Shown: positions 23,740-59,421 of the stretch, piece by piece | Layout: the number at the start of each line of letters is the position of its first letter | How positions within the stretch are numbered: position 1 is the first letter of the stretch | Source of the DNA: a virus | Virus record (IMG/VR): IMGVR_UViG_3300030102_006960 | Location: 64,001-128,000 of that record | DNA: 64,000 nt | Reading direction: 5' to 3' (one strand) | The notes under the pieces: generated by a model | What the model was told of the DNA's origin: nothing | The model's input: only the letters and a program-made list of their open reading frames with translations | Databases searched by the model: none | Made by a program: the position numbers and the translations under genes

Positions 23740-25191
23740 ATGGCTAATTCAATGACTAAATACAGAGAAATGGAGGAAGAAAAAACGCAATTAACCGAAA
23801 ACGGTATGTCTACAAATAATACTACACTAAATAACTGTGTAGATTTATTTTTCTCTATTGGGGCTATGAGAGGGAAAAATAAAGTTACCTTAATTGAAAA
23901 ATTTTCCAAAGCATATAGTGAAAACCCATTAGTTGCAACTCGTATCCTTTTTTGGGTAAGAGATGTTAGAGAAGGTGCCGGTGAGAGACAAATCTTTAGA
24001 GATGTTATTTCTCACTTAGTAAAACTTTCACCAGATGTCGTTAAAAAGAATGTTCATCTTATTTCTGAATACGGAAGATGGGATGATGTATTTACATTAA
24101 TTGGTACTGACTTAGAAGGTATGGTTATAGACTTAATCGTAACTGCCTTAGGTAACGAAGACGGTTTATGTGCTAAGTGGATGCCTCGTAAAGGTGAAGT
24201 ATTTAATAAAGTTAGAAGAGCTTTAAAAGTTTCCCCGAAAGAATTAAGAAAAAGATTAGTAGGTTTGACAGATGTAGTGGAAACTAAGATGTGTTCAAAT
24301 CGATGGAAAGAAATTGACTACTCTAAAATACCTTCATTGGCATCGGCAAGATATCAAAAAGCGTTTTGGAGAAGAGATGAAAAGGGTTATAATCAATTTG
24401 TAGAAGACCTTAAAGAAGGTAAAACTACAGTTAATAGTGGAGCACTATACCCTTACGATATTTTAAAGACTTTGTATACTGGTGTTGATGAAACAGTTTC
24501 TCAAAATCAATGGGATAATTTACCTAACTTTATGGAAGGTAATGAGGATAGAGTTTTACCAATGGTTGATGTTTCAGGTTCAATGAGTTGTTCCGCAGGT
24601 AGTAATGATTCACTTACTTGTATGGATGTAGCAATCTCATTAGGTATCTATATTTCAGAAAGGAATGAAGGAGCATTTAAAGATAGTTTTTTAACTTTTT
24701 CTTCAACACCGAGTTTACAGTACTTAACTGGTGATTCACTAAAAGGTAAATTACAACAGTTAAGAAGTGCACATTGGGGAATGAGTACAAATTTAACGGC
24801 AACATTTGATTTATTGTTAAATCAGGCAGTAACTCATAATATTCCTTTAGGGGAAATGCCGACAAAAATATTAATATTATCAGATATGGAATTCGATGCA
24901 GCGACAGGAAATTGTTGGGAAGAATCTGATAGTTGGAATCCTACTGCAATGGAGATGATTAAAACAAAATATGAAGAAGCTGGTTATGAAATGCCAACAA
25001 TAGTATTTTGGAATCTTCATTCCAGAGGTAATGATAATTTTCCTGTTAGACAGGATGAGATGAACACCGCTTTAATCTCAGGATTTAGTCCATCAATACT
25101 AAAGTCAGTATTGAATGGGGAGAATTTAACTCCTTACTCAGTAATGATGAAAACTGTTGATAGTACTAGATATGAGAATATAACGGTATAG
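23740..25191 (+). CDS. DUF2828-like TROVE/Ro60-related protein with C-terminal VWA domain
   Basis: TENG, RDVREGAGER, YGRWDD, AKWMPR, MIDAS DVSGS, STNL, SDMEFD, IVFWNL, SGFSP. Start moved to ATG 23740, downstream of the promoter. Confidence 0.85.
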   Translation: MANSMTKYREMEEEKTQLTENGMSTNNTTLNNCVDLFFSIGAMRGKNKVTLIEKFSKAYSENPLVATRILFWVRDVREGAGERQIFRDVISHLVKLSPDVVKKNVHLISEYGRWDDVFTLIGTDLEGMVIDLIVTALGNEDGLCAKWMPRKGEVFNKVRRALKVSPKELRKRLVGLTDVVETKMCSNRWKEIDYSKIPSLASARYQKAFWRRDEKGYNQFVEDLKEGKTTVNSGALYPYDILKTLYTGVDETVSQNQWDNLPNFMEGNEDRVLPMVDVSGSMSCSAGSNDSLTCMDVAISLGIYISERNEGAFKDSFLTFSSTPSLQYLTGDSLKGKLQQLRSAHWGMSTNLTATFDLLLNQAVTHNIPLGEMPTKILILSDMEFDAATGNCWEESDSWNPTAMEMIKTKYEEAGYEMPTIVFWNLHSRGNDNFPVRQDEMNTALISGFSPSILKSVLNGENLTPYSVMMKTVDSTRYENITV

Positions 25192-37010: not shown

Positions 37011-37202
37011 ATGGGAAGAGTTAAACAACTTTACGAAGAAGTGTACGTTGAAGAAATGGAAAAACATTATCAACAATTATATATGGAAGAAAAACTATAT
37101 AGTCAACGATATGGGGATGACACGGAATTGATTGACGTAGAGAAGTGTGAAGATTCAGGTATGGGTGATGACCTTCATCAAAACCTTAGCCGGAAACGCT
37201 GA
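37011..37202 (+). CDS. Small ORF overlapping the tmRNA 5' end
   Basis: ATG just after TTTG-N20-TATATTTA (36974-37005); stop codon lies 90 nt inside the tmRNA. Confidence 0.5.
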   Translation: MGRVKQLYEEVYVEEMEKHYQQLYMEEKLYSQRYGDDTELIDVEKCEDSGMGDDLHQNLSRKR

Positions 37203-37452
37203 GTATGCTATGGCAGCCTAATTAGATTAGATGTTAAGCACATCATGTAACTGAGTATACTTGTAGGTTGCTAAGATGTAAAAGGAAGTAGATGGTGATG
37301 TTTGGTAATGATAGTGATTTGCCAGTGACGACCTTACAGTTAACGAAAACCTATCAATTTTCGGAAGTTTAGAAAAACTTGTCCTAAACCTGTAAAAAGA
37401 TCTCATATGGATGACGGGCAAGACGGGGGTTCGAATCCCCCCATCTCCACCA
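37113..37452 (+). ncRNA. ssrA: tmRNA
   Basis: GGGGATG / CATCTCC-ACCA acceptor stem with G3.U70; T arm GGGGGTTCGAATCCCCC; tag frame GGA AAC GCT GAG TAT GCT ATG GCA GCC TAA (37192-37221) = (A)GNAEYAMAA. Confidence 0.95.
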
Positions 37453-54190: not shown

Positions 54191-54532
54191 ATGGGTAATA
54201 ACGGAAATCAAAATGGGTGGAATGAATATTCACGACTTGTCTTAGCAGAATTAGAGAAATTGAATAATAAAGTAGATTCACTAACTGAGGAAAATAACGA
54301 TATTAAACAAGAACTATCTAAATTAGAACAATTTAAAGACGAAATATCTTCATTAAAAGATTGGAAAGGTAATGTAGATGAAGTATCTTCACCTACACAA
54401 TTAAAAGAATTACAAAAAGAAGTTAGTGATTTAAAAACATTTAAAACTATGTCTACTACTGTATGGGTGGTAGTACAGATTATTTTTGGTATTGTCGCAA
54501 CTTTATTTGGGCTTTATTTAAAATCTAGTTGA
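54191..54532 (+). CDS. Coiled-coil protein with C-terminal TM (holin/hemolysin-like architecture)
   Basis: NGWNEYSRLVL.EL..L start, heptads, terminal hydrophobic helix. Confidence 0.6.
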   Translation: MGNNGNQNGWNEYSRLVLAELEKLNNKVDSLTEENNDIKQELSKLEQFKDEISSLKDWKGNVDEVSSPTQLKELQKEVSDLKTFKTMSTTVWVVVQIIFGIVATLFGLYLKSS

Positions 54533-56394
54533 GGTTTAGTAACTAAGTTTACTTTTAGATTAACCCCATTTTCTTTACCCCACTCTTCAAACGCAATAGC
54601 GTGAGGTTCTCTATCTTCATACATTTCTATTAACTCCGTATTTGGAAACCTATTTAATAGACTTACAATAGTATTTAACTTACTATTTAAAGTATCTCCA
54701 TCATCTTTATAATGGTATTCATCAAAAACAATATCATTACTGTGTAATATATCTTCTACTTGATCTTTCTGATTTGGAAGTCTACCAGTTAACATAACCA
54801 CATAAGTGTTAGGTGTATCACTTTCAATAACATAATCACTTATTGTAGATTTAATTGGTTGAATATCGAATACCTCAGTATCTAAAGATTCTCTTTTACT
54901 CCACCAACCTCTATGTGGATATGGTGAACCAGTTTTTTCTTCCCATTCTCTTTTACCTTCTTCTGCGTGTGGTGTGTCCATCAACGTACCATCAAAGTCA
55001 AAGATTGCAATCTTGTTAATATCTAAAGGGTCTCCTACTGTTTCCATAATTAATCTGAATTTACTTACTGTTACACATTCGTTTAAATCTAATACACTAC
55101 CTTGTACCCAAGGGGTGAAATCTTCTAACGGAGTTTTATGTTTTTCTCCGTTATATGTAAAAGTAATCATTTTTTCGTCAAAATCCAAATCTCTATCTAA
55201 AAATTCTAATTTTCCGTCACTACTAGTCCATTTTTTCATCCAACTATGATGATTAAACCCACTTTTTTTAAGGAATGATTCAAACTCCCTTTTTTGTTTT
55301 ATTTTTTCTGCGTAATTTTCATCATCCTCTAATTTATGTAATTTTCGCTCTAGTTCCGCATTTAATACTTCTTTAACATATTTTGCACCTGCTTCATCAA
55401 TAAAGTCACCACCCCAATATGCATCATCTAAATCACAATTACTACAAGGGTTTAGTTCTTCTTCTAAATCTTGTAAATCACTAAATGTAAAAATACCATG
55501 TTCTTTAATTTTCTCTAATAAATCTTCATATGGAATCTTTATGGTGTATGGTCCATAAGAAAATTGACTGATATAAGGAACGTAAGTAATTTCATCTTCA
55601 TAGATTTCTTTTACTTGTTCTGTTCTAAATCTACCAGTTTCACCATTTAATGCCCAAACATATTCATTTACTACATCGTCTTTATCATCTTTAGTAAGAA
55701 AGTCATCTAAATATTCGTATAGTCCACCATCGTTGTCCATACCACCATATTTAGGATCATCAACATAAACACCTACTATATCACCTATCTTTTTTATAAT
55801 ATCTAATGTCTTATCATTATACATTACATAGTTGAATTCTTCATGATCATAATCTTCTGAACCTGCTCCGTCATCACCAATTCTCCACGCCTGCTCTCCA
55901 ACACCAGATATAAATTGTTCAAAGTCGTCACTATCACCCGCAATTTCTAATCCATCTCTTTCAAAATTAACACAAGGTGTTTTTGGATATCCGTTAGAAT
56001 TACAATAATAAAAATTGTCACCTAATAAAGTCTTAACTAATTTATTGTGTTCATCACTAGGATAATAAACTTCTAATACTTCATCTTCATCACCATCTTT
56101 TTCTTTAAGTCTCTCAACAAATTTATATAATGCATCTCCTCTATTAACATTTTCAATAGTTTCCCATGGAATTCTATATTTATTATCCCCAAACTCATCA
56201 TTTCCAACCTTAACTGCGGATTTGGTATCTTTATTTAAAACCCATAATGCGTACCATTGTTTAGCTTCTTCATTGGTAAAGGCTAATGTAGTTTTTAACC
56301 ACTTTATCACCTTTGCTTTACTAGGGTAAGTACCAACAAACTCTTTATTGATAAAATCTATTATTTTTATTTCTAATTTAGAAAATTTGTCCAT
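54514..56394 (-). CDS. Paralogue-family acidic protein fused to a HAD phosphatase (Swiss-army-knife RNA-repair type)
   Basis: C-terminal FDFDGTL.DTP, GWWS, MLTGR, K, MYEDR..H; linker DLNECVTVSKFRLIME; ATATTTAT on - strand at 56413-56420. Confidence 0.8.
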   Translation of the reverse strand: MDKFSKLEIKIIDFINKEFVGTYPSKAKVIKWLKTTLAFTNEEAKQWYALWVLNKDTKSAVKVGNDEFGDNKYRIPWETIENVNRGDALYKFVERLKEKDGDEDEVLEVYYPSDEHNKLVKTLLGDNFYYCNSNGYPKTPCVNFERDGLEIAGDSDDFEQFISGVGEQAWRIGDDGAGSEDYDHEEFNYVMYNDKTLDIIKKIGDIVGVYVDDPKYGGMDNDGGLYEYLDDFLTKDDKDDVVNEYVWALNGETGRFRTEQVKEIYEDEITYVPYISQFSYGPYTIKIPYEDLLEKIKEHGIFTFSDLQDLEEELNPCSNCDLDDAYWGGDFIDEAGAKYVKEVLNAELERKLHKLEDDENYAEKIKQKREFESFLKKSGFNHHSWMKKWTSSDGKLEFLDRDLDFDEKMITFTYNGEKHKTPLEDFTPWVQGSVLDLNECVTVSKFRLIMETVGDPLDINKIAIFDFDGTLMDTPHAEEGKREWEEKTGSPYPHRGWWSKRESLDTEVFDIQPIKSTISDYVIESDTPNTYVVMLTGRLPNQKDQVEDILHSNDIVFDEYHYKDDGDTLNSKLNTIVSLLNRFPNTELIEMYEDREPHAIAFEEWGKENGVNLKVNLVTKPQLDFK

Positions 56395-56474: not shown

Positions 56475-56960
56475 ATGAATATTTTTATATTAGACGAAGA
56501 CCCAAAAAAATGTGCTGAGTATCACAACGATAAGCACGTAGTTAAAATGATATTAGAAAGTGCACAACTTCTATGTGGTGTCCATCATATGGTAGAATCA
56601 GGTTTAGATGTACCTTATGGTTTATCCCATAAGAACCACCCTTGTTCTATATGGGCAAGAGAATGTATAGAAAATTATGTATGGTTATGTGATTTAGGTA
56701 TTGAGTTATGTAAAGAATATACCTACCGTTATGAAAAAAGACACAAATCACAAGATATAATCGAATGGTGTATGATTAACCACCCACCATTAAAAGAGTT
56801 GGGTAAACTAACACCATTTAGACTTGCAATGCCAGATGAATGTAAAATTGGTAATGCAGTTGAGTCATACAGAGAGTACTATATTAGAGAGAAAAAATAC
56901 TTTTCTAAGTGGAAAAAAAGAAATATTCCGCATTTTATGGTAAAATGTTTGGCAGTTTAA
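56475..56960 (+). CDS. Pyrimidine dimer DNA glycosylase/DenV-like family protein
   Basis: MNIFILD.DP..CA.YH.DKHVVKMILESAQLL, H.NHPC..W, AMPD, YR.YY. Confidence 0.75.
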   Translation: MNIFILDEDPKKCAEYHNDKHVVKMILESAQLLCGVHHMVESGLDVPYGLSHKNHPCSIWARECIENYVWLCDLGIELCKEYTYRYEKRHKSQDIIEWCMINHPPLKELGKLTPFRLAMPDECKIGNAVESYREYYIREKKYFSKWKKRNIPHFMVKCLAV

Positions 56961-57000: not shown

Positions 57001-57792
57001 ATGGAATACTTAAATTTAGAACAAATCGGAGCACAGTGTCCTTCGGCATTAACACAGACACAATCAAGACATCTTTCACACATTTACAAACACATTCCTA
57101 CTACTAAGGTAATTGATATCTTAGAAGAAAAGAATTGGAAACCAACCGCAGCGATGCAAACTGGTACTCGTACAGGATATGAAGATACCGTACCATTTAA
57201 GAAACACATTTTACGTTTCAGAAATACGGAGATGGATAACCTTTCCAATGAGATTGGGGATACACATCCAGAGATTGTATTAACCAACTCTCACAATGGT
57301 AGATCATCCTTTAAATTTCACGTAGGACTTTTTAGATTAGTTTGTAGTAACGGATTAGTAGTTGCAGATAAGACTTTTGATAGTTACACTATTCGTCACA
57401 AAGGATTTAAAAAATCTTCTATATTAGATACGGTAGGACAAATTACTACACATATCCCACAAGTTGTTGGTAAAGTACAAAGTATGATGGGTGTGGAACT
57501 AACACCTCAACAACGAAGAGATTTCGCACAACAAGCGGTAATCGAAAGATGGGGTAAAGACAGACACGTTAACTTAGACGAATTACTAACCATTAACAGA
57601 GCCGCAGACAAAGGAAATGATTTGTGGACAGTATTCAACAGAATACAAGAGGGAATGATTAGAGGAGGTTTAAATACCTACGTTAAAAAAGACGGAAAAA
57701 TTAAATATAATAAAACCAGAGCAGTTAAGTCGATAGATGAAAATCTAAAGGTTAACAAAATGTTGTGGAGTTTATCAGAGACTATGGTGTAA
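57001..57792 (+). CDS. DUF932 family protein
   Basis: KH..RFR, L.NSHNG.SSF....GLFRLVCSNGL, DLW.VFN.IQE; promoter TTTG-N20-TATATTTG at 56948-56979. Confidence 0.88.
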   Translation: MEYLNLEQIGAQCPSALTQTQSRHLSHIYKHIPTTKVIDILEEKNWKPTAAMQTGTRTGYEDTVPFKKHILRFRNTEMDNLSNEIGDTHPEIVLTNSHNGRSSFKFHVGLFRLVCSNGLVVADKTFDSYTIRHKGFKKSSILDTVGQITTHIPQVVGKVQSMMGVELTPQQRRDFAQQAVIERWGKDRHVNLDELLTINRAADKGNDLWTVFNRIQEGMIRGGLNTYVKKDGKIKYNKTRAVKSIDENLKVNKMLWSLSETMV

Positions 57793-57818: not shown

Positions 57819-57846
57819 AGGGGGAAGAAATTCTCCCTTTTTTTTT
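57819..57846 (+). terminator. Intrinsic terminator
   Basis: AGGGGGAA-GAAA-TTCTCCCT plus T run. Confidence 0.8.
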
Positions 57847-57890
57847 GTTTATTAAATTATTTTTTCTATATTTGTATAAACAAATTAATT

Positions 57891-58625
57891 ATGCCACAGA
57901 TATATGAAGTAGGAGGATGTGTAAGAGATGAAATCATAGGGGTACACACCAACGATATTGATTTCACATTCGTTTTAGATAATACCGATCAAACAGTAGA
58001 TGAGGGATGGGACGAAATGTTAACCCACTTAAAAACTGAAGGGTTCAAAATATTTTTGGAAACCAAAGATTGTTTTACTGTTAGAGCTAAGTTCCCTAAA
58101 GGACATGTGAATGAAGGGTTGGTTGCAGACTTTGTAATGGCTCGTAAGGAAGTAGGTTACATCTTAGGTACTAGAAAACCTATATTAGAGTTAGGTACAT
58201 TGGAAGATGATTTAAGGAGAAGGGATTTTACTCTTAATGCATTAGCAAAAGATTTAGATGGAACTATCGTTGATTTATTTGAGGGTAGAAAACATTTAGA
58301 GGAAGGTATTTTAGTTACCCCACTAAATCCAATTAAAACTTTCTTTGATGATCCGTTAAGGATGATTAGAGCATTAAGGTTTTCAATTACTAAAGGTTTT
58401 GAGATTGATTCTGAAGTTTGGGATGCAATGTTTGAACCGGGATTAATTGAACACTTAAAGAACGTAGTATCAAAAGAAAGGATACAAGGTGAGGTTTCTA
58501 AAATGATGAAACACGATACAGTATCTACTTTAAGGTTACTGGCGAAGATTGATAAAATTGAACCTAAACTATTAGAGGTTATGTTTGGTGGTGACATATG
58601 GTTACTACCATCAACAAAGAAATAA
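57891..58625 (+). CDS. cca: CCA tRNA nucleotidyltransferase (compact class II)
   Basis: VGGCVRD, DIDF, ARKE..Y + R.P loop, RRDFTLNA, DDPLRMIRALRF, ERI; no poly(A)-polymerase GRRF signature. Confidence 0.85.
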   Translation: MPQIYEVGGCVRDEIIGVHTNDIDFTFVLDNTDQTVDEGWDEMLTHLKTEGFKIFLETKDCFTVRAKFPKGHVNEGLVADFVMARKEVGYILGTRKPILELGTLEDDLRRRDFTLNALAKDLDGTIVDLFEGRKHLEEGILVTPLNPIKTFFDDPLRMIRALRFSITKGFEIDSEVWDAMFEPGLIEHLKNVVSKERIQGEVSKMMKHDTVSTLRLLAKIDKIEPKLLEVMFGGDIWLLPSTKK

Positions 58626-58861
58626 GAGTACACAACGGACAAGGCTATGGCGAGTGAGTTGTGACATAATAAGGGTAGGAGATTAAAAAGGTTTGTTACA
58701 TTCAGATATAAAAGTGTAACAGAGGAAGTAGCGGAAGGGTACATAAGAAAACCTGAAAATTCTAGACAGTCAGGAGGCCAAAACCCTTTTTAATCGTTTG
58801 AACTAACATTATGGACAACAACAAATCGGTGGGATGCGAGTGGTTGACCAGTACTCTTATT
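58621..58861 (+). ncRNA. Candidate structured ncRNA of unknown family
   Basis: Nested helices AATAAGAGTAC/GTACTCTTATT, GTTGT-GA-CATAAT/ATTATG-G-ACAAC, GATTAAAAAGG/CCTTTTTAATC, plus two apical hairpins; G-richer than surroundings; followed by a T run. Confidence 0.7.
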
Positions 58862-58908
58862 TTTTATTTTTTTTTCTACATATTTATTTAATAGAAACCT
58901 TTTAATTT

Positions 58909-59421
58909 ATGAAAAATGTGCCAAGTAAATTTAATTTGTGCACTCGTTTGACACTGGTAATATTGGGTATACTGTCCATAATTTTATTGCCTATAATCTA
59001 CGGGTGGGAAGGTAGTTATAGTCAATACTATCAATACATACCTATTGGTTTTACTATTATTTTTTCTACGTTGTCTGTTGGTTTATATGTACATAGTAAT
59101 AATGAATGGAAAATATCTGCAATGGCATTAATATGTTTATCTATTTTTGATATGTACCGGTTTCCACTCTTACATTATAGTTGTGCAATATTCTTTTTTG
59201 TATTTGCAACATTTGCGATGTGGAATGATAAAAGAGTAAGTGGTTTTGGTAAACTTTCCTTATCTCTTTACCCACTAATATTTTTTAGTTTAATGATTTT
59301 TGAGTTGGTACAAGTTTTAATTATATGTACTTTTCATTTAATATATGTTATAAGATTACTTAACACTAAAATAGAAAAAAAATTAATTCAAGATGTTATT
59401 ATAGAAGATGGAGATATTTAA
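58909..59421 (+). CDS. Multi-pass membrane protein
   Basis: Several hydrophobic segments; SYSQY and LHY..A..FF motifs. Confidence 0.7.
   Translation: MKNVPSKFNLCTRLTLVILGILSIILLPIIYGWEGSYSQYYQYIPIGFTIIFSTLSVGLYVHSNNEWKISAMALICLSIFDMYRFPLLHYSCAIFFFVFATFAMWNDKRVSGFGKLSLSLYPLIFFSLMIFELVQVLIICTFHLIYVIRLLNTKIEKKLIQDVIIEDGDI

What the first reader, a model, noticed from the sequence alone, without database searches (positions are those of the whole stretch)
58621..58861. Pseudo-symmetric ~240-nt structured RNA starting at the stop codon of the CCA-adding enzyme
Seen: an 11-bp closing helix (58621-31/58851-61), two further long-range helices (58658-70/58808-19; 58681-91/58785-95) and two apical hairpins (58694-58721; 58752-58774). 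A U.G pair and a 3' T run support the + strand. The two strands of the large internal loop are copies of each other: ACAAC...ACAA..GG...GCGAGTG(A)GTTG at 58632-58661 and 58815-58846. They can therefore pair across (rod with bubble) or each fold as a local hairpin. GGA occurs repeatedly in unpaired parts. Inference: an unnamed phage ncRNA. Options are a 6S-like promoter mimic that sequesters host holoenzyme while the phage sigma takes over, a two-site sponge for a dimeric protein, or a switch or partner for the CCA enzyme.
Basis: partly seen in the sequence, partly recalled or inferred. Interest (0 to 1): 0.78.

Follow-up and report, generated by a model that had tools for sequence, protein, structure and literature searches.

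The report
Widespread phage tRNA-island small RNA
The folded stretch after the CCA-enzyme gene is real. It is an enlarged copy of a small RNA gene that many large phages carry among their tRNA genes, that matched no catalogued RNA family, and whose function is still unknown.

Summary

It is not a one-off. It is the long-insert form of a widespread phage small-RNA family, 80-135 nt elsewhere, that no Rfam 15 model matches.

- **Core.** Both helices covary fully. One pair inside the supposed loop shows all four Watson-Crick types.
- **Members.** I found about 40 IMG/VR contigs, 74-79 cultured Streptomyces phages (unannotated there) and marine relatives of this phage.
- **Context.** Most members lie inside tRNA arrays, co-oriented and abutting tRNA ends, often near tmRNA. 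One lies between the halves of a split polynucleotide kinase, beside RNA ligase 1.
- **This lineage.** The gene sits at the 3' end of the cca (or a kinase) mRNA. Its closing helix plus T-run serves as the terminator, and a 113-nt four-way-junction domain replaces an 8-nt apical loop.

The 6S-like and CCA-partner readings are not supported. The function is unknown. Most likely it is a stable trans-acting RNA in tRNA or translation upkeep. Unchecked first-reader notes elsewhere in this scan (e1-5825445, e1-5407575) seem to describe the same family on other DNA.

The parts
57845..57874 (+). Bacteroidetes-type promoter (TTG-N19-TAnnTTTG) of the cca transcription unit, preceded by the terminator at 57819-57838
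   Evidence: Consensus matches only; transcription was not measured.
57891..58625 (+). Short (244 aa) CCA-adding-type nucleotidyltransferase gene. Its stop codon (58623-58625) lies inside the closing helix.
   Evidence: Pfam PolyA_pol 8e-16; PHROG tRNA nucleotidyltransferase.
58614..58636 (+). 5' strands of the closing helices. P1 is 58621-31, extendable to 58614 with a G.U pair. A58632 is unpaired. P1b is 58633-36.
   Evidence: Family covariation: all 6 modelled P1 pairs and 3 of 4 P1b pairs change on both sides.
58637..58657 (+).
   Evidence: Invariant or nearly so in 31 distinct family members. Positions 58651-53 and 58655 pair with 58828-26 and 58824.
58658..58670 (+). 5' strand of P2 (58658-62 and 58665-70).
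   Evidence: Pairs with 58808-19. Covaries within the lineage (the mini variant L128 has a G-C to A-U change) and across the family (5 of 5 pairs change on both sides).
58671..58681 (+). 5' arm of the sub-apical hairpin, conserved in one subgroup of the family.
   Evidence: helix 6.
58682..58794 (+). Lineage-specific 113-nt insert forming a four-way junction: P3 (58681-91 with 58785-95), H1 58692-58723, H2 58728-42, H3 58752-74.
   Evidence: Replaced by an 8-nt loop in L128/L129 and L132. H1 shows the series C-G, U.G, U-A and a swapped apical part that still pairs. Junction strands are invariant in 19 variants.
58795..58819 (+). 3' arm of the sub-apical hairpin (58795-58807) and 3' strand of P2 (58808-19).
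58820..58842 (+). Conserved core strand B, the second 'copy'.
   Evidence: Pair 58653-58826 shows AU 10, CG 9, GC 8, UA 3 and no mismatch across the family. 58654 and 58825 swap G/A with A/G.
58843..58861 (+). 3' strands of P1b (58843-46) and P1 (58851-61), with a 4-nt ACCA bulge (58847-50) between them.
   Evidence: The ACCA bulge is found in only part of the family.
58862..58877 (+). T-run directly after P1. Together with P1 it reads as the intrinsic terminator of the cca unit.
   Evidence: T-richness is kept while the sequence varies. The 80%-identical cca relative L003 has an ordinary terminator hairpin at this place. Termination was not measured.
58878..59421 (+). Context: a conserved 31-nt spacer and an ORFan membrane-protein gene (170 aa). 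This gene follows the RNA in every close relative.
   Evidence: The high-identity island runs from 58621 to about 58940.

Best explanation
**Shown.** The element is a gene for a structured RNA of a widespread phage family.

- The family unit is an irregular rod. A closing helix (P1/P1b) is followed by two near-invariant strands that partly pair with each other, then a second helix (P2), then a freely variable apical part.
- The apical part ranges from a short hairpin in the shortest members to, in this window, a 113-nt four-way junction.
- In most phages the gene lies inside tRNA operons, on the same strand, with its ends touching tRNA ends.
- In this phage lineage it has moved to the 3' end of the cca (or kinase) mRNA.

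**Inferred.**

- In tRNA arrays the RNA is cut out by the nucleases that release tRNAs (RNase P and RNase Z) and accumulates as a stable RNA with paired ends.
- Here P1 plus the T-run ends transcription and protects the 3' end.
- The invariant two-strand module is the working part. It binds, in trans, a component of tRNA or translation upkeep that is conserved across bacterial phyla. Most likely this is a host protein, which the RNA titrates or recruits during infection.
- The inserted junction domain is a lineage-specific add-on under its own selection.
For: **Folding.** z = -4.1.

**Selection in this lineage.** The element is 94-100% identical where the flanking genes are 62-78% identical.

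**Family membership.**
- Pattern scans and the covariance model R2 find 46 matches at 32-124 bits in the fetched viral-contig and cultured-phage loci.
- BLAST gives partial matches in 74-79 Streptomyces phage records. All five that I checked with the model are full members.

**Structure.**
- 12 diverse members: 88% of cells paired against 69% in shuffles. Covariation is 0.51 against 0.18, and slid controls are at most 0.12.
- 31 distinct members: 89.5% paired, covariation 0.656 against 0.172.
- P1, P1b and P2 have different sequences but keep their pairing.

**Context.**
- Always co-oriented with neighbouring tRNAs.
- At least 11 loci lie within 0-4 nt of a tRNA end.
- tmRNA lies nearby in several loci.
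- In L133 the order is Rnl1-type ligase, PNKP phosphatase, the RNA, AAA_33 kinase.
- Sigma-70-like promoters lie directly upstream in Jay2Jay and TunaTartare.

**Host range and partners.**
- The core is nearly invariant in contigs of 32-65% G+C and in phages of Streptomyces. The window phage uses Bacteroidetes-type promoters.
- No phage protein that I tested is universal among carriers. This points to a host partner or to the RNA acting on its own.

**Apical part is dispensable.** Members of 80-87 nt exist.
Against: - Transcription, processing sites and stability are therefore all inferred.
- No partner was identified. 'Binds a conserved host factor' rests only on conservation and gene context.
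- High conservation in the close lineage could partly reflect recent recombination rather than selection.
- The alignment used for the larger pair count was fitted to the model.
- A 219-nt 'loop' is unusual for an intrinsic terminator, and the terminator scan did not call it.
Confidence: 0.5

Rival explanations
1. The core docks tRNA itself, at the 3' CCA end or the elbow, as T-box leaders and RNase P RNA do. It would hold, sense or protect tRNAs during infection.
For: - The RNA sits in tRNA operons and beside tRNA-repair genes.
- The partner must be conserved across host phyla, and tRNA is.
- The central unpaired purine strand (58829-34) is invariant and contains UGG, which could pair with CCA.
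Against: - No Rfam T-box or RNase P match, even weak.
- The T-loop pentamer reading fails. Its would-be fifth position in strand A is a freely covarying Watson-Crick pair, and its first position in strand B is U or C.
- The argument rests on the motif alone.
Confidence: 0.13
2. It is a catalytic or self-processing RNA, a new self-cleaving ribozyme, that helps cut polycistronic tRNA transcripts. Its cut ends would explain the neighbouring end-healing and ligase genes.
For: - About 45 invariant nucleotides within the 80-87-nt shortest members are typical of ribozymes and aptamers.
- It sits exactly between tRNAs.
- In L133 it sits between the kinase and phosphatase halves, beside an RNA ligase.
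Against: - No match to any self-cleaving class in Rfam.
- Flanking tRNAs already supply RNase P and RNase Z sites.
- The ligase is present in only 4 of 15 carriers.
- No cleavage site can be proposed.
Confidence: 0.1
3. It is a Y-RNA-like partner of the phage Ro60-like (TROVE/DUF2828) protein: a conserved stem 'handle' carrying a variable apical module.
For: - The plan is similar: paired ends, a conserved stem region, a variable apex.
- Ro-like genes exist in the window's genome, in L139's genome and in Jay2Jay.
- Bacterial rsr and Y RNA genes are known to sit beside RNA-repair genes (own knowledge).
Against: - No TROVE or DUF2828 match in the 100%-complete 304-kb genome G006.
- Here the Ro-like gene is about 34 kb away. 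A first-reader note (e1-5784251, unchecked) reports candidate RNAs of its own right beside it.
- No Rfam Y RNA or YrlA match.
Confidence: 0.07
4. In this lineage it acts in cis. It would be an elaborate terminator or 3'-UTR stabiliser of the cca mRNA, or an attenuator that gates read-through into the membrane-protein gene at 58909.
For: - P1 is followed at once by a T-run.
- No clear promoter of the phage's usual type lies before 58909.
- The RNA, the spacer and the gene start form one conserved island and always occur together in this clade.
Against: - The same core occurs in tRNA arrays and under its own promoter, with unrelated downstream genes.
- Any cis role can therefore only be secondary.
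- The membrane protein is confined to this clade.
Confidence: 0.1
5. It is a 6S-like mimic of an open promoter that sequesters host RNA polymerase.
For: The overall shape is a rod with a central irregular region.
Against: - No match to 6S or 6S-Flavo at E<=10.
- Members as short as 80-87 nt.
- The 'bubble' is largely paired.
- Strict sequence conservation across host phyla is unlike 6S.
Confidence: 0.03
6. It is a DNA-level element, such as a recombination site, an origin, or a mobile insertion with 11-bp inverted ends.
For: Perfect inverted ends. The conserved island has sharp borders and sits in otherwise mosaic surroundings.
Against: - Single copy per genome.
- The + strand folds 12 kcal/mol better than the - strand.
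- G.U intermediates occur in the compensatory series.
- The strand always matches that of neighbouring tRNAs.
- Helices covary while keeping their pairing.
Confidence: 0.02

Closest known systems
Phage T4 species 1 and species 2 RNAs (rnaC, rnaD)
   Same: Small stable RNAs of unknown function. They are encoded at the end of a phage tRNA cluster, on the same strand, and released with the tRNAs (annotation; own knowledge).
   Different: No sequence or structure relation. The family model finds nothing in the T4 tRNA region, with filters off (best 8.5 bits, E 0.38, on the other strand). T4 rnaC ends in a tRNA-like T arm, which this family lacks.
Bacterial and phage Y RNAs (YrlA/YrlB) with Ro60/Rsr
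   Same: Paired 5' and 3' ends, a conserved stem region and a variable apical module. Both are linked with RNA-repair genes.
   Different: No Rfam match. The RNA is not adjacent to the Ro-like gene. Ro-like genes were not found in the 100%-complete carrier genome G006.
6S RNA, including 6S-Flavo (Rfam RF00013, RF01685)
   Same: A rod with an irregular centre. It is an abundant-RNA type of gene rather than a leader.
   Different: Shorter. The centre is base-paired and nearly invariant in sequence. No model match.
GOLLD, ROOL and raiA-type ornate RNAs of phage tRNA islands
   Same: Structured RNAs of unknown function found beside phage tRNA genes. One carrier contig (L131) also holds GOLLD and tmRNA.
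   Different: Much smaller. No homology by Rfam.

Membership tests
New family described here (two-strand core RNA of phage tRNA islands) | Both near-invariant core strands are present, in order, on one strand of DNA. | tested here: met
   Window 58637-57 and 58820-42 match the family consensus.
New family described here (two-strand core RNA of phage tRNA islands) | A closing helix and a P2 helix flank the core directly, and the cross-strand pairs are kept. | tested here: met
   The full-length model scores the window only in two halves (23 and 26 bits) because of the 113-nt insert.
New family described here (two-strand core RNA of phage tRNA islands) | Location in or beside tRNA, tmRNA or RNA-repair genes, on their strand. 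| tested here: met
   Here it follows cca, or in sister genomes an AAA_33 kinase. It is not in a tRNA array: the contig has only 2 tRNAs and a tmRNA, all elsewhere.
6S RNA / 6S-Flavo | Match to the Rfam covariance models. | tested here: not met
   No hit at E<=10.
6S RNA / 6S-Flavo | A large, truly unpaired central bubble. | tested here: not met
   Covarying pairs lie inside the 'loop'.
6S RNA / 6S-Flavo | Binds RNA polymerase holoenzyme and templates product RNAs. | not testable with these tools
   Needs biochemistry.
Y RNA / YrlA | Encoded next to a Ro60 (TROVE) gene and bound by it. | tested here: not met
   The DUF2828 gene lies about 34 kb upstream in the window. No TROVE or DUF2828 match in the 100%-complete carrier genome G006. 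Binding itself is not testable here.
Y RNA / YrlA | Match to the Rfam Y RNA or YrlA models. | tested here: not met
T4 rnaC / rnaD | Sequence and structure homology. | tested here: not met
T-box or RNase P type tRNA-docking modules | Model match, and a pair of T-loop pentamers. | tested here: not met
   No Rfam hit. The pentamer positions are incompatible with the observed covariation.
Known self-cleaving ribozymes (twister, twister-sister, hatchet, pistol, hammerhead, HDV-like) | Match to the Rfam models. | tested here: not met
   Self-cleavage by a new class was not tested.
Intrinsic terminator | A G+C-containing stem followed directly by a U-run. | tested here: inconclusive
   The stem (58621-31 with 58851-61) and a 16-nt T-rich run are present. 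The enclosed 219 nt put it outside the scan's definition.
Riboswitch or cis leader | A constant position upstream of one class of genes. | tested here: not met
   Downstream genes differ across the family, and most members sit between tRNAs.

The most novel reading that the evidence does not exclude
The invariant two-strand module is a new kind of RNA device that large phages place in their tRNA operons. It would be either an RNA that recognises tRNAs directly, a fourth tRNA-docking RNA after the ribosome, RNase P and T-box leaders, or a new self-processing ribozyme class.
Probability: 0.2. Interest if true: 0.9.

Novelty: categorically new. Interest (0 to 1): 0.77.

Why it matters
Large phages invest heavily in their own tRNAs, tmRNA and RNA-repair enzymes.

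This RNA has about 45 nearly invariant nucleotides. It is shared by phages of Streptomyces, by marine phages with Bacteroidetes-type promoters and by many uncultured phages. It is always single-copy and sits among those genes. That pattern points to an unrecognised player in the contest over the translation apparatus.

The family matched none of 4227 Rfam models and nothing in the papers I could search. "New" here means new as an RNA family; its mechanism is unknown.

It is present, unannotated, in more than 70 cultured and genetically tractable Streptomyces phages, so its function can be tested directly. The natural size series (80-87 nt, about 125 nt, 241 nt) already marks out the minimal functional unit.

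Tried and rejected
- **Model R1** (built on the long form only) found nothing in five relatives' whole records or elsewhere in the window. The better family model R2 also found nothing in those five.
- **Local-hairpin fold of each repeat** (RNAalifold's choice on two sequences). Rejected in favour of the cross-paired rod. The mini variant changes G-C to A-U across the strands, and P2 covaries family-wide.
- **Internal promoter candidate 58558-87.** Not conserved where the upstream gene differs.
- **Link to the downstream membrane protein.** Its homologues exist only in this clade, and other members have other neighbours.
- **Phage protein partners, tested over RNA-bearing records:**
  - Rnl1: 4 of 15.
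  - PolyA_pol (CCA enzyme): 1-2 of 15.
  - DUF932: 5 of 15.
  - TROVE or DUF2828: 3 of 6.
  - None is universal.
- **rRNA mimicry.** One variant of strand A resembles E. coli 23S 1507-1525 (0 of 200 shuffles as good, among 18 comparisons). The family model does not match the rRNA operon (best 6.5 bits, E about 1). I treat this as a curiosity.
- **T4 rnaC/rnaD homology.** None.
- **Double T-loop idea.** Incompatible with the covariation.
- **Literature.** Searches for a description of the family found nothing relevant.
- **Cultured phages for the L161 subgroup.** BLAST found none.

Full report
**1. The observation.**
- An 11-bp closing helix (58621-31 with 58851-61). It runs on to 58614 through a G.U pair and covers the cca stop codon at 58623-25.
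- Long-range helices 58658-70 with 58808-19, and 58681-91 with 58785-95.
- Hairpins at 58692-58723 and 58752-74.
- Two stretches that are copies of each other.

As RNA, the + strand folds at -60.1 kcal/mol against -44.1 +/- 3.9 for dinucleotide shuffles (z -4.14, 0 of 200 as good). The - strand reaches only -47.8 (z -2.99). Rfam finds nothing here, even at E<=10. The only catalogued RNA in the window is a tmRNA at 37113-37452.

**2. Local setting.**
The upstream ORF (57891-58625) is a short CCA-adding-type nucleotidyltransferase.
- It has a terminator before it (57819-38).
- It has a promoter of the TTG-N19-TAnnTTTG type that recurs before other genes of this phage (57845-74).
- No terminator lies between the ORF and the element.
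- P1 is followed at once by a 16-nt T-rich run.

The element is therefore the 3' end of the cca transcription unit. P1 plus the T-run is its likely terminator. This is an inference and was not measured. The next gene (58909-59421) encodes a 170-aa membrane protein with no family.

**3. Close relatives.**
Of 80 viral contigs that encode a relative of the cca gene, only the near-identical one (L002) has the element. A contig with 80% identity has a plain terminator hairpin at that place. Most others have a gene there.

A metagenome scan with the two repeat motifs, one genome-collection scan, and look-ups of the downstream protein then gave about 30 marine contigs of this lineage.

Three results matter.
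- **(i) Conservation.** Where the flanking genes have drifted to 62-78% nucleotide identity, the element stays at 94-100%. The island has sharp borders at 58621 and about 58940.
- **(ii) Upstream gene.** It is not constant. In several genomes a 129-aa AAA_33 kinase gene lies between cca and the element, and its stop codon again overlaps P1.
- **(iii) Mini variant.** L128/L129 carry a natural short form in which 58682-58794 is replaced by an 8-nt loop. The two repeat strands stay identical there and the helices change in a compensating way. The G-C pair 58661-58816 becomes A-U, and the 58665-70 with 58808-13 helix is rewritten.

The strands pair across (the rod); they do not fold back on themselves.

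Within the long form, hairpin H1 shows the series C-G, U.G, U-A. It also has two alternative apical sequences that both pair. The junction strands of the insert are invariant in 19 distinct variants.

**4. The family.**
Scans of viral contigs with either repeat strand alone found distant copies in contigs of 32-65% G+C.
- They share two strands, corresponding to 58637-57 and 58820-42, almost letter for letter.
- They differ completely in the sequences of P1, P1b and P2, which nevertheless stay complementary.

On 12 diverse members with a structure I wrote by hand:
- 88% of cells are paired, against 69% in shuffles.
- The covariation score is 0.51 against 0.18.
- Slid controls give at most 0.12.

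A covariance model built on them (R2) finds 46 matches at 32-124 bits in the fetched viral-contig and cultured-phage loci. On 31 distinct rows, 89.5% of cells pair and the covariation score is 0.656 against 0.172. That alignment was fitted to the model, which favours it.

The 'internal loop' is not open.
- Positions 58651-53 and 58655 pair with 58828-26 and 58824.
- The pair 58653-58826 occurs as A-U (10), C-G (9), G-C (8) and U-A (3), with no mismatch.
- The neighbouring purines 58654 and 58825 switch between G/A and A/G.
- The matching positions in the other half never vary, so the two halves are alike in sequence but not equivalent.

Member length ranges from 80-87 nt (for example phage HangryHippo), through about 125 nt, to 241 nt in the window. 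The apical part is therefore dispensable or lineage-specific, and the window's four-way junction is a derived insertion.

**5. Where the family lives.**
Almost all members outside the window's lineage lie in phage tRNA arrays and on the same strand as the tRNAs.
- At least 11 lie within 0-4 nt of a tRNA end. In L137, L139 and L149 tRNAs flank both sides.
- tmRNA is often close by.
- One contig also has GOLLD.

BLAST gives partial matches in 74-79 cultured Streptomyces phage records, all without annotation at that place. All five that I checked with the model are full members. In Jay2Jay and TunaTartare a sigma-70-like promoter lies directly upstream.

In L133 the gene lies between a PNKP-type phosphatase gene and an AAA_33 kinase gene, next to an Rnl1-type RNA ligase. 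This is the classical tRNA-repair set.

The window's contig has one copy, and only two tRNAs and the tmRNA, all elsewhere.

**6. What it is not.**
- No Rfam family matches any member.
- T4 rnaC and rnaD, the classical small RNAs of a phage tRNA cluster, are not related.
- The E. coli rRNA operon is not matched by the model. A local likeness of strand A to 23S 1507-1525 remains a curiosity.
- No phage protein partner was universal among carriers:

| Protein family | Records with a match |
|---|---|
| Rnl1 | 4 of 15 |
| PolyA_pol (CCA enzyme) | 1 of 15 above cut-off; 0 of 7 records at least 90% complete |
| DUF932 | 5 of 15 |
| TROVE or DUF2828 | 3 of 6; none in the 100%-complete 304-kb genome G006 |

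- Five close cca relatives, one of them a complete 380-kb genome, lack the RNA.

The 'partner of the CCA enzyme' idea therefore fails as a general explanation. The 6S idea has no support. The Y-RNA idea is weak.

**7. How it most likely works.**

Shown:
- It is a conserved, structured, single-copy RNA gene.
- The functional unit is the two-strand core between two helices.
- It travels with tRNA, tmRNA and RNA-repair genes.

Inferred:
- In tRNA operons it is released by the enzymes that trim the neighbouring tRNAs, and it persists as a rod with closed ends.
- In this phage it is made as the tail of the cca mRNA and ended by its own closing helix.
- The core is nearly invariant in phages of very different hosts, and no phage protein co-occurs with it. 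Its target should therefore be a component conserved across bacteria and tied to tRNA or translation.
- I judge a host protein most likely, tRNA itself next, and catalysis third. I cannot choose further with these tools.

**8. Novelty.**
The family matched none of 4227 Rfam models and nothing in the papers I could search. In kind it sits beside the poorly understood small and ornate RNAs of phage tRNA islands. As a family it is new as far as these tools show, and its mechanism is open.

Two first-reader notes of this scan (e1-5825445 and e1-5407575) seem to describe copies on other genomes. I did not check them.

Noticed in passing
window 37113-37452 (+): Phage-encoded tmRNA, tag GNAEYAMAA. 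It is the only Rfam match in the window.
   Followed up: no
window about 23794-24489 (G000:87794-88489): DUF2828 (TROVE-related, Ro60-like) gene. A first-reader note reports Y-RNA-like units right after it.
   Followed up: partly
window 54514-56394 (-), 56475-56960, 57001-57792: Neighbouring genes: a protein with the HAD domain of 'Swiss Army Knife' RNA-repair proteins, a pyrimidine-dimer glycosylase-like gene and a DUF932 gene. This is an RNA/DNA repair neighbourhood.
   Followed up: no
window 58878-58940: The spacer and the first ~30 nt of the membrane-protein gene are 91-98% conserved where the rest of the gene is about 75% identical. No promoter of the phage's usual type is seen.
   Followed up: partly
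L133:2735-4768 (-): Split polynucleotide kinase. The PNKP phosphatase and the AAA_33 kinase are separate genes with the RNA gene between them, beside an Rnl1-type ligase and adenylosuccinate synthetase.
   Followed up: partly
L099 (QCKH01000014.1): A contig filed under a Prochlorococcus single-cell genome is 86% identical to this phage over 6.7 kb. This looks like a co-sorted or infecting phage rather than host DNA.
   Followed up: no
L139, L150, L165: The tRNA arrays of carrier phages include CUA-anticodon (amber-reading) and UUA-anticodon tRNAs, hinting at stop-codon recoding.
   Followed up: no
L131:5916-6890: A GOLLD RNA (308 bits) and a tmRNA lie next to each other, on opposite strands, on the same contig as a family member.
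   Followed up: no
E. coli 23S rRNA 1507-1525 (L176): Local likeness to core strand A (18 of 19 positions with one gap), followed about 25 nt later by a stretch like the start of strand B. The family model does not support it.
   Followed up: partly
window 58847-58850: A 4-nt ACCA bulge opposite a single A between P1 and P1b. It is kept in many members but not all, in both tRNA-array and other contexts. Its meaning is unknown.
   Followed up: partly
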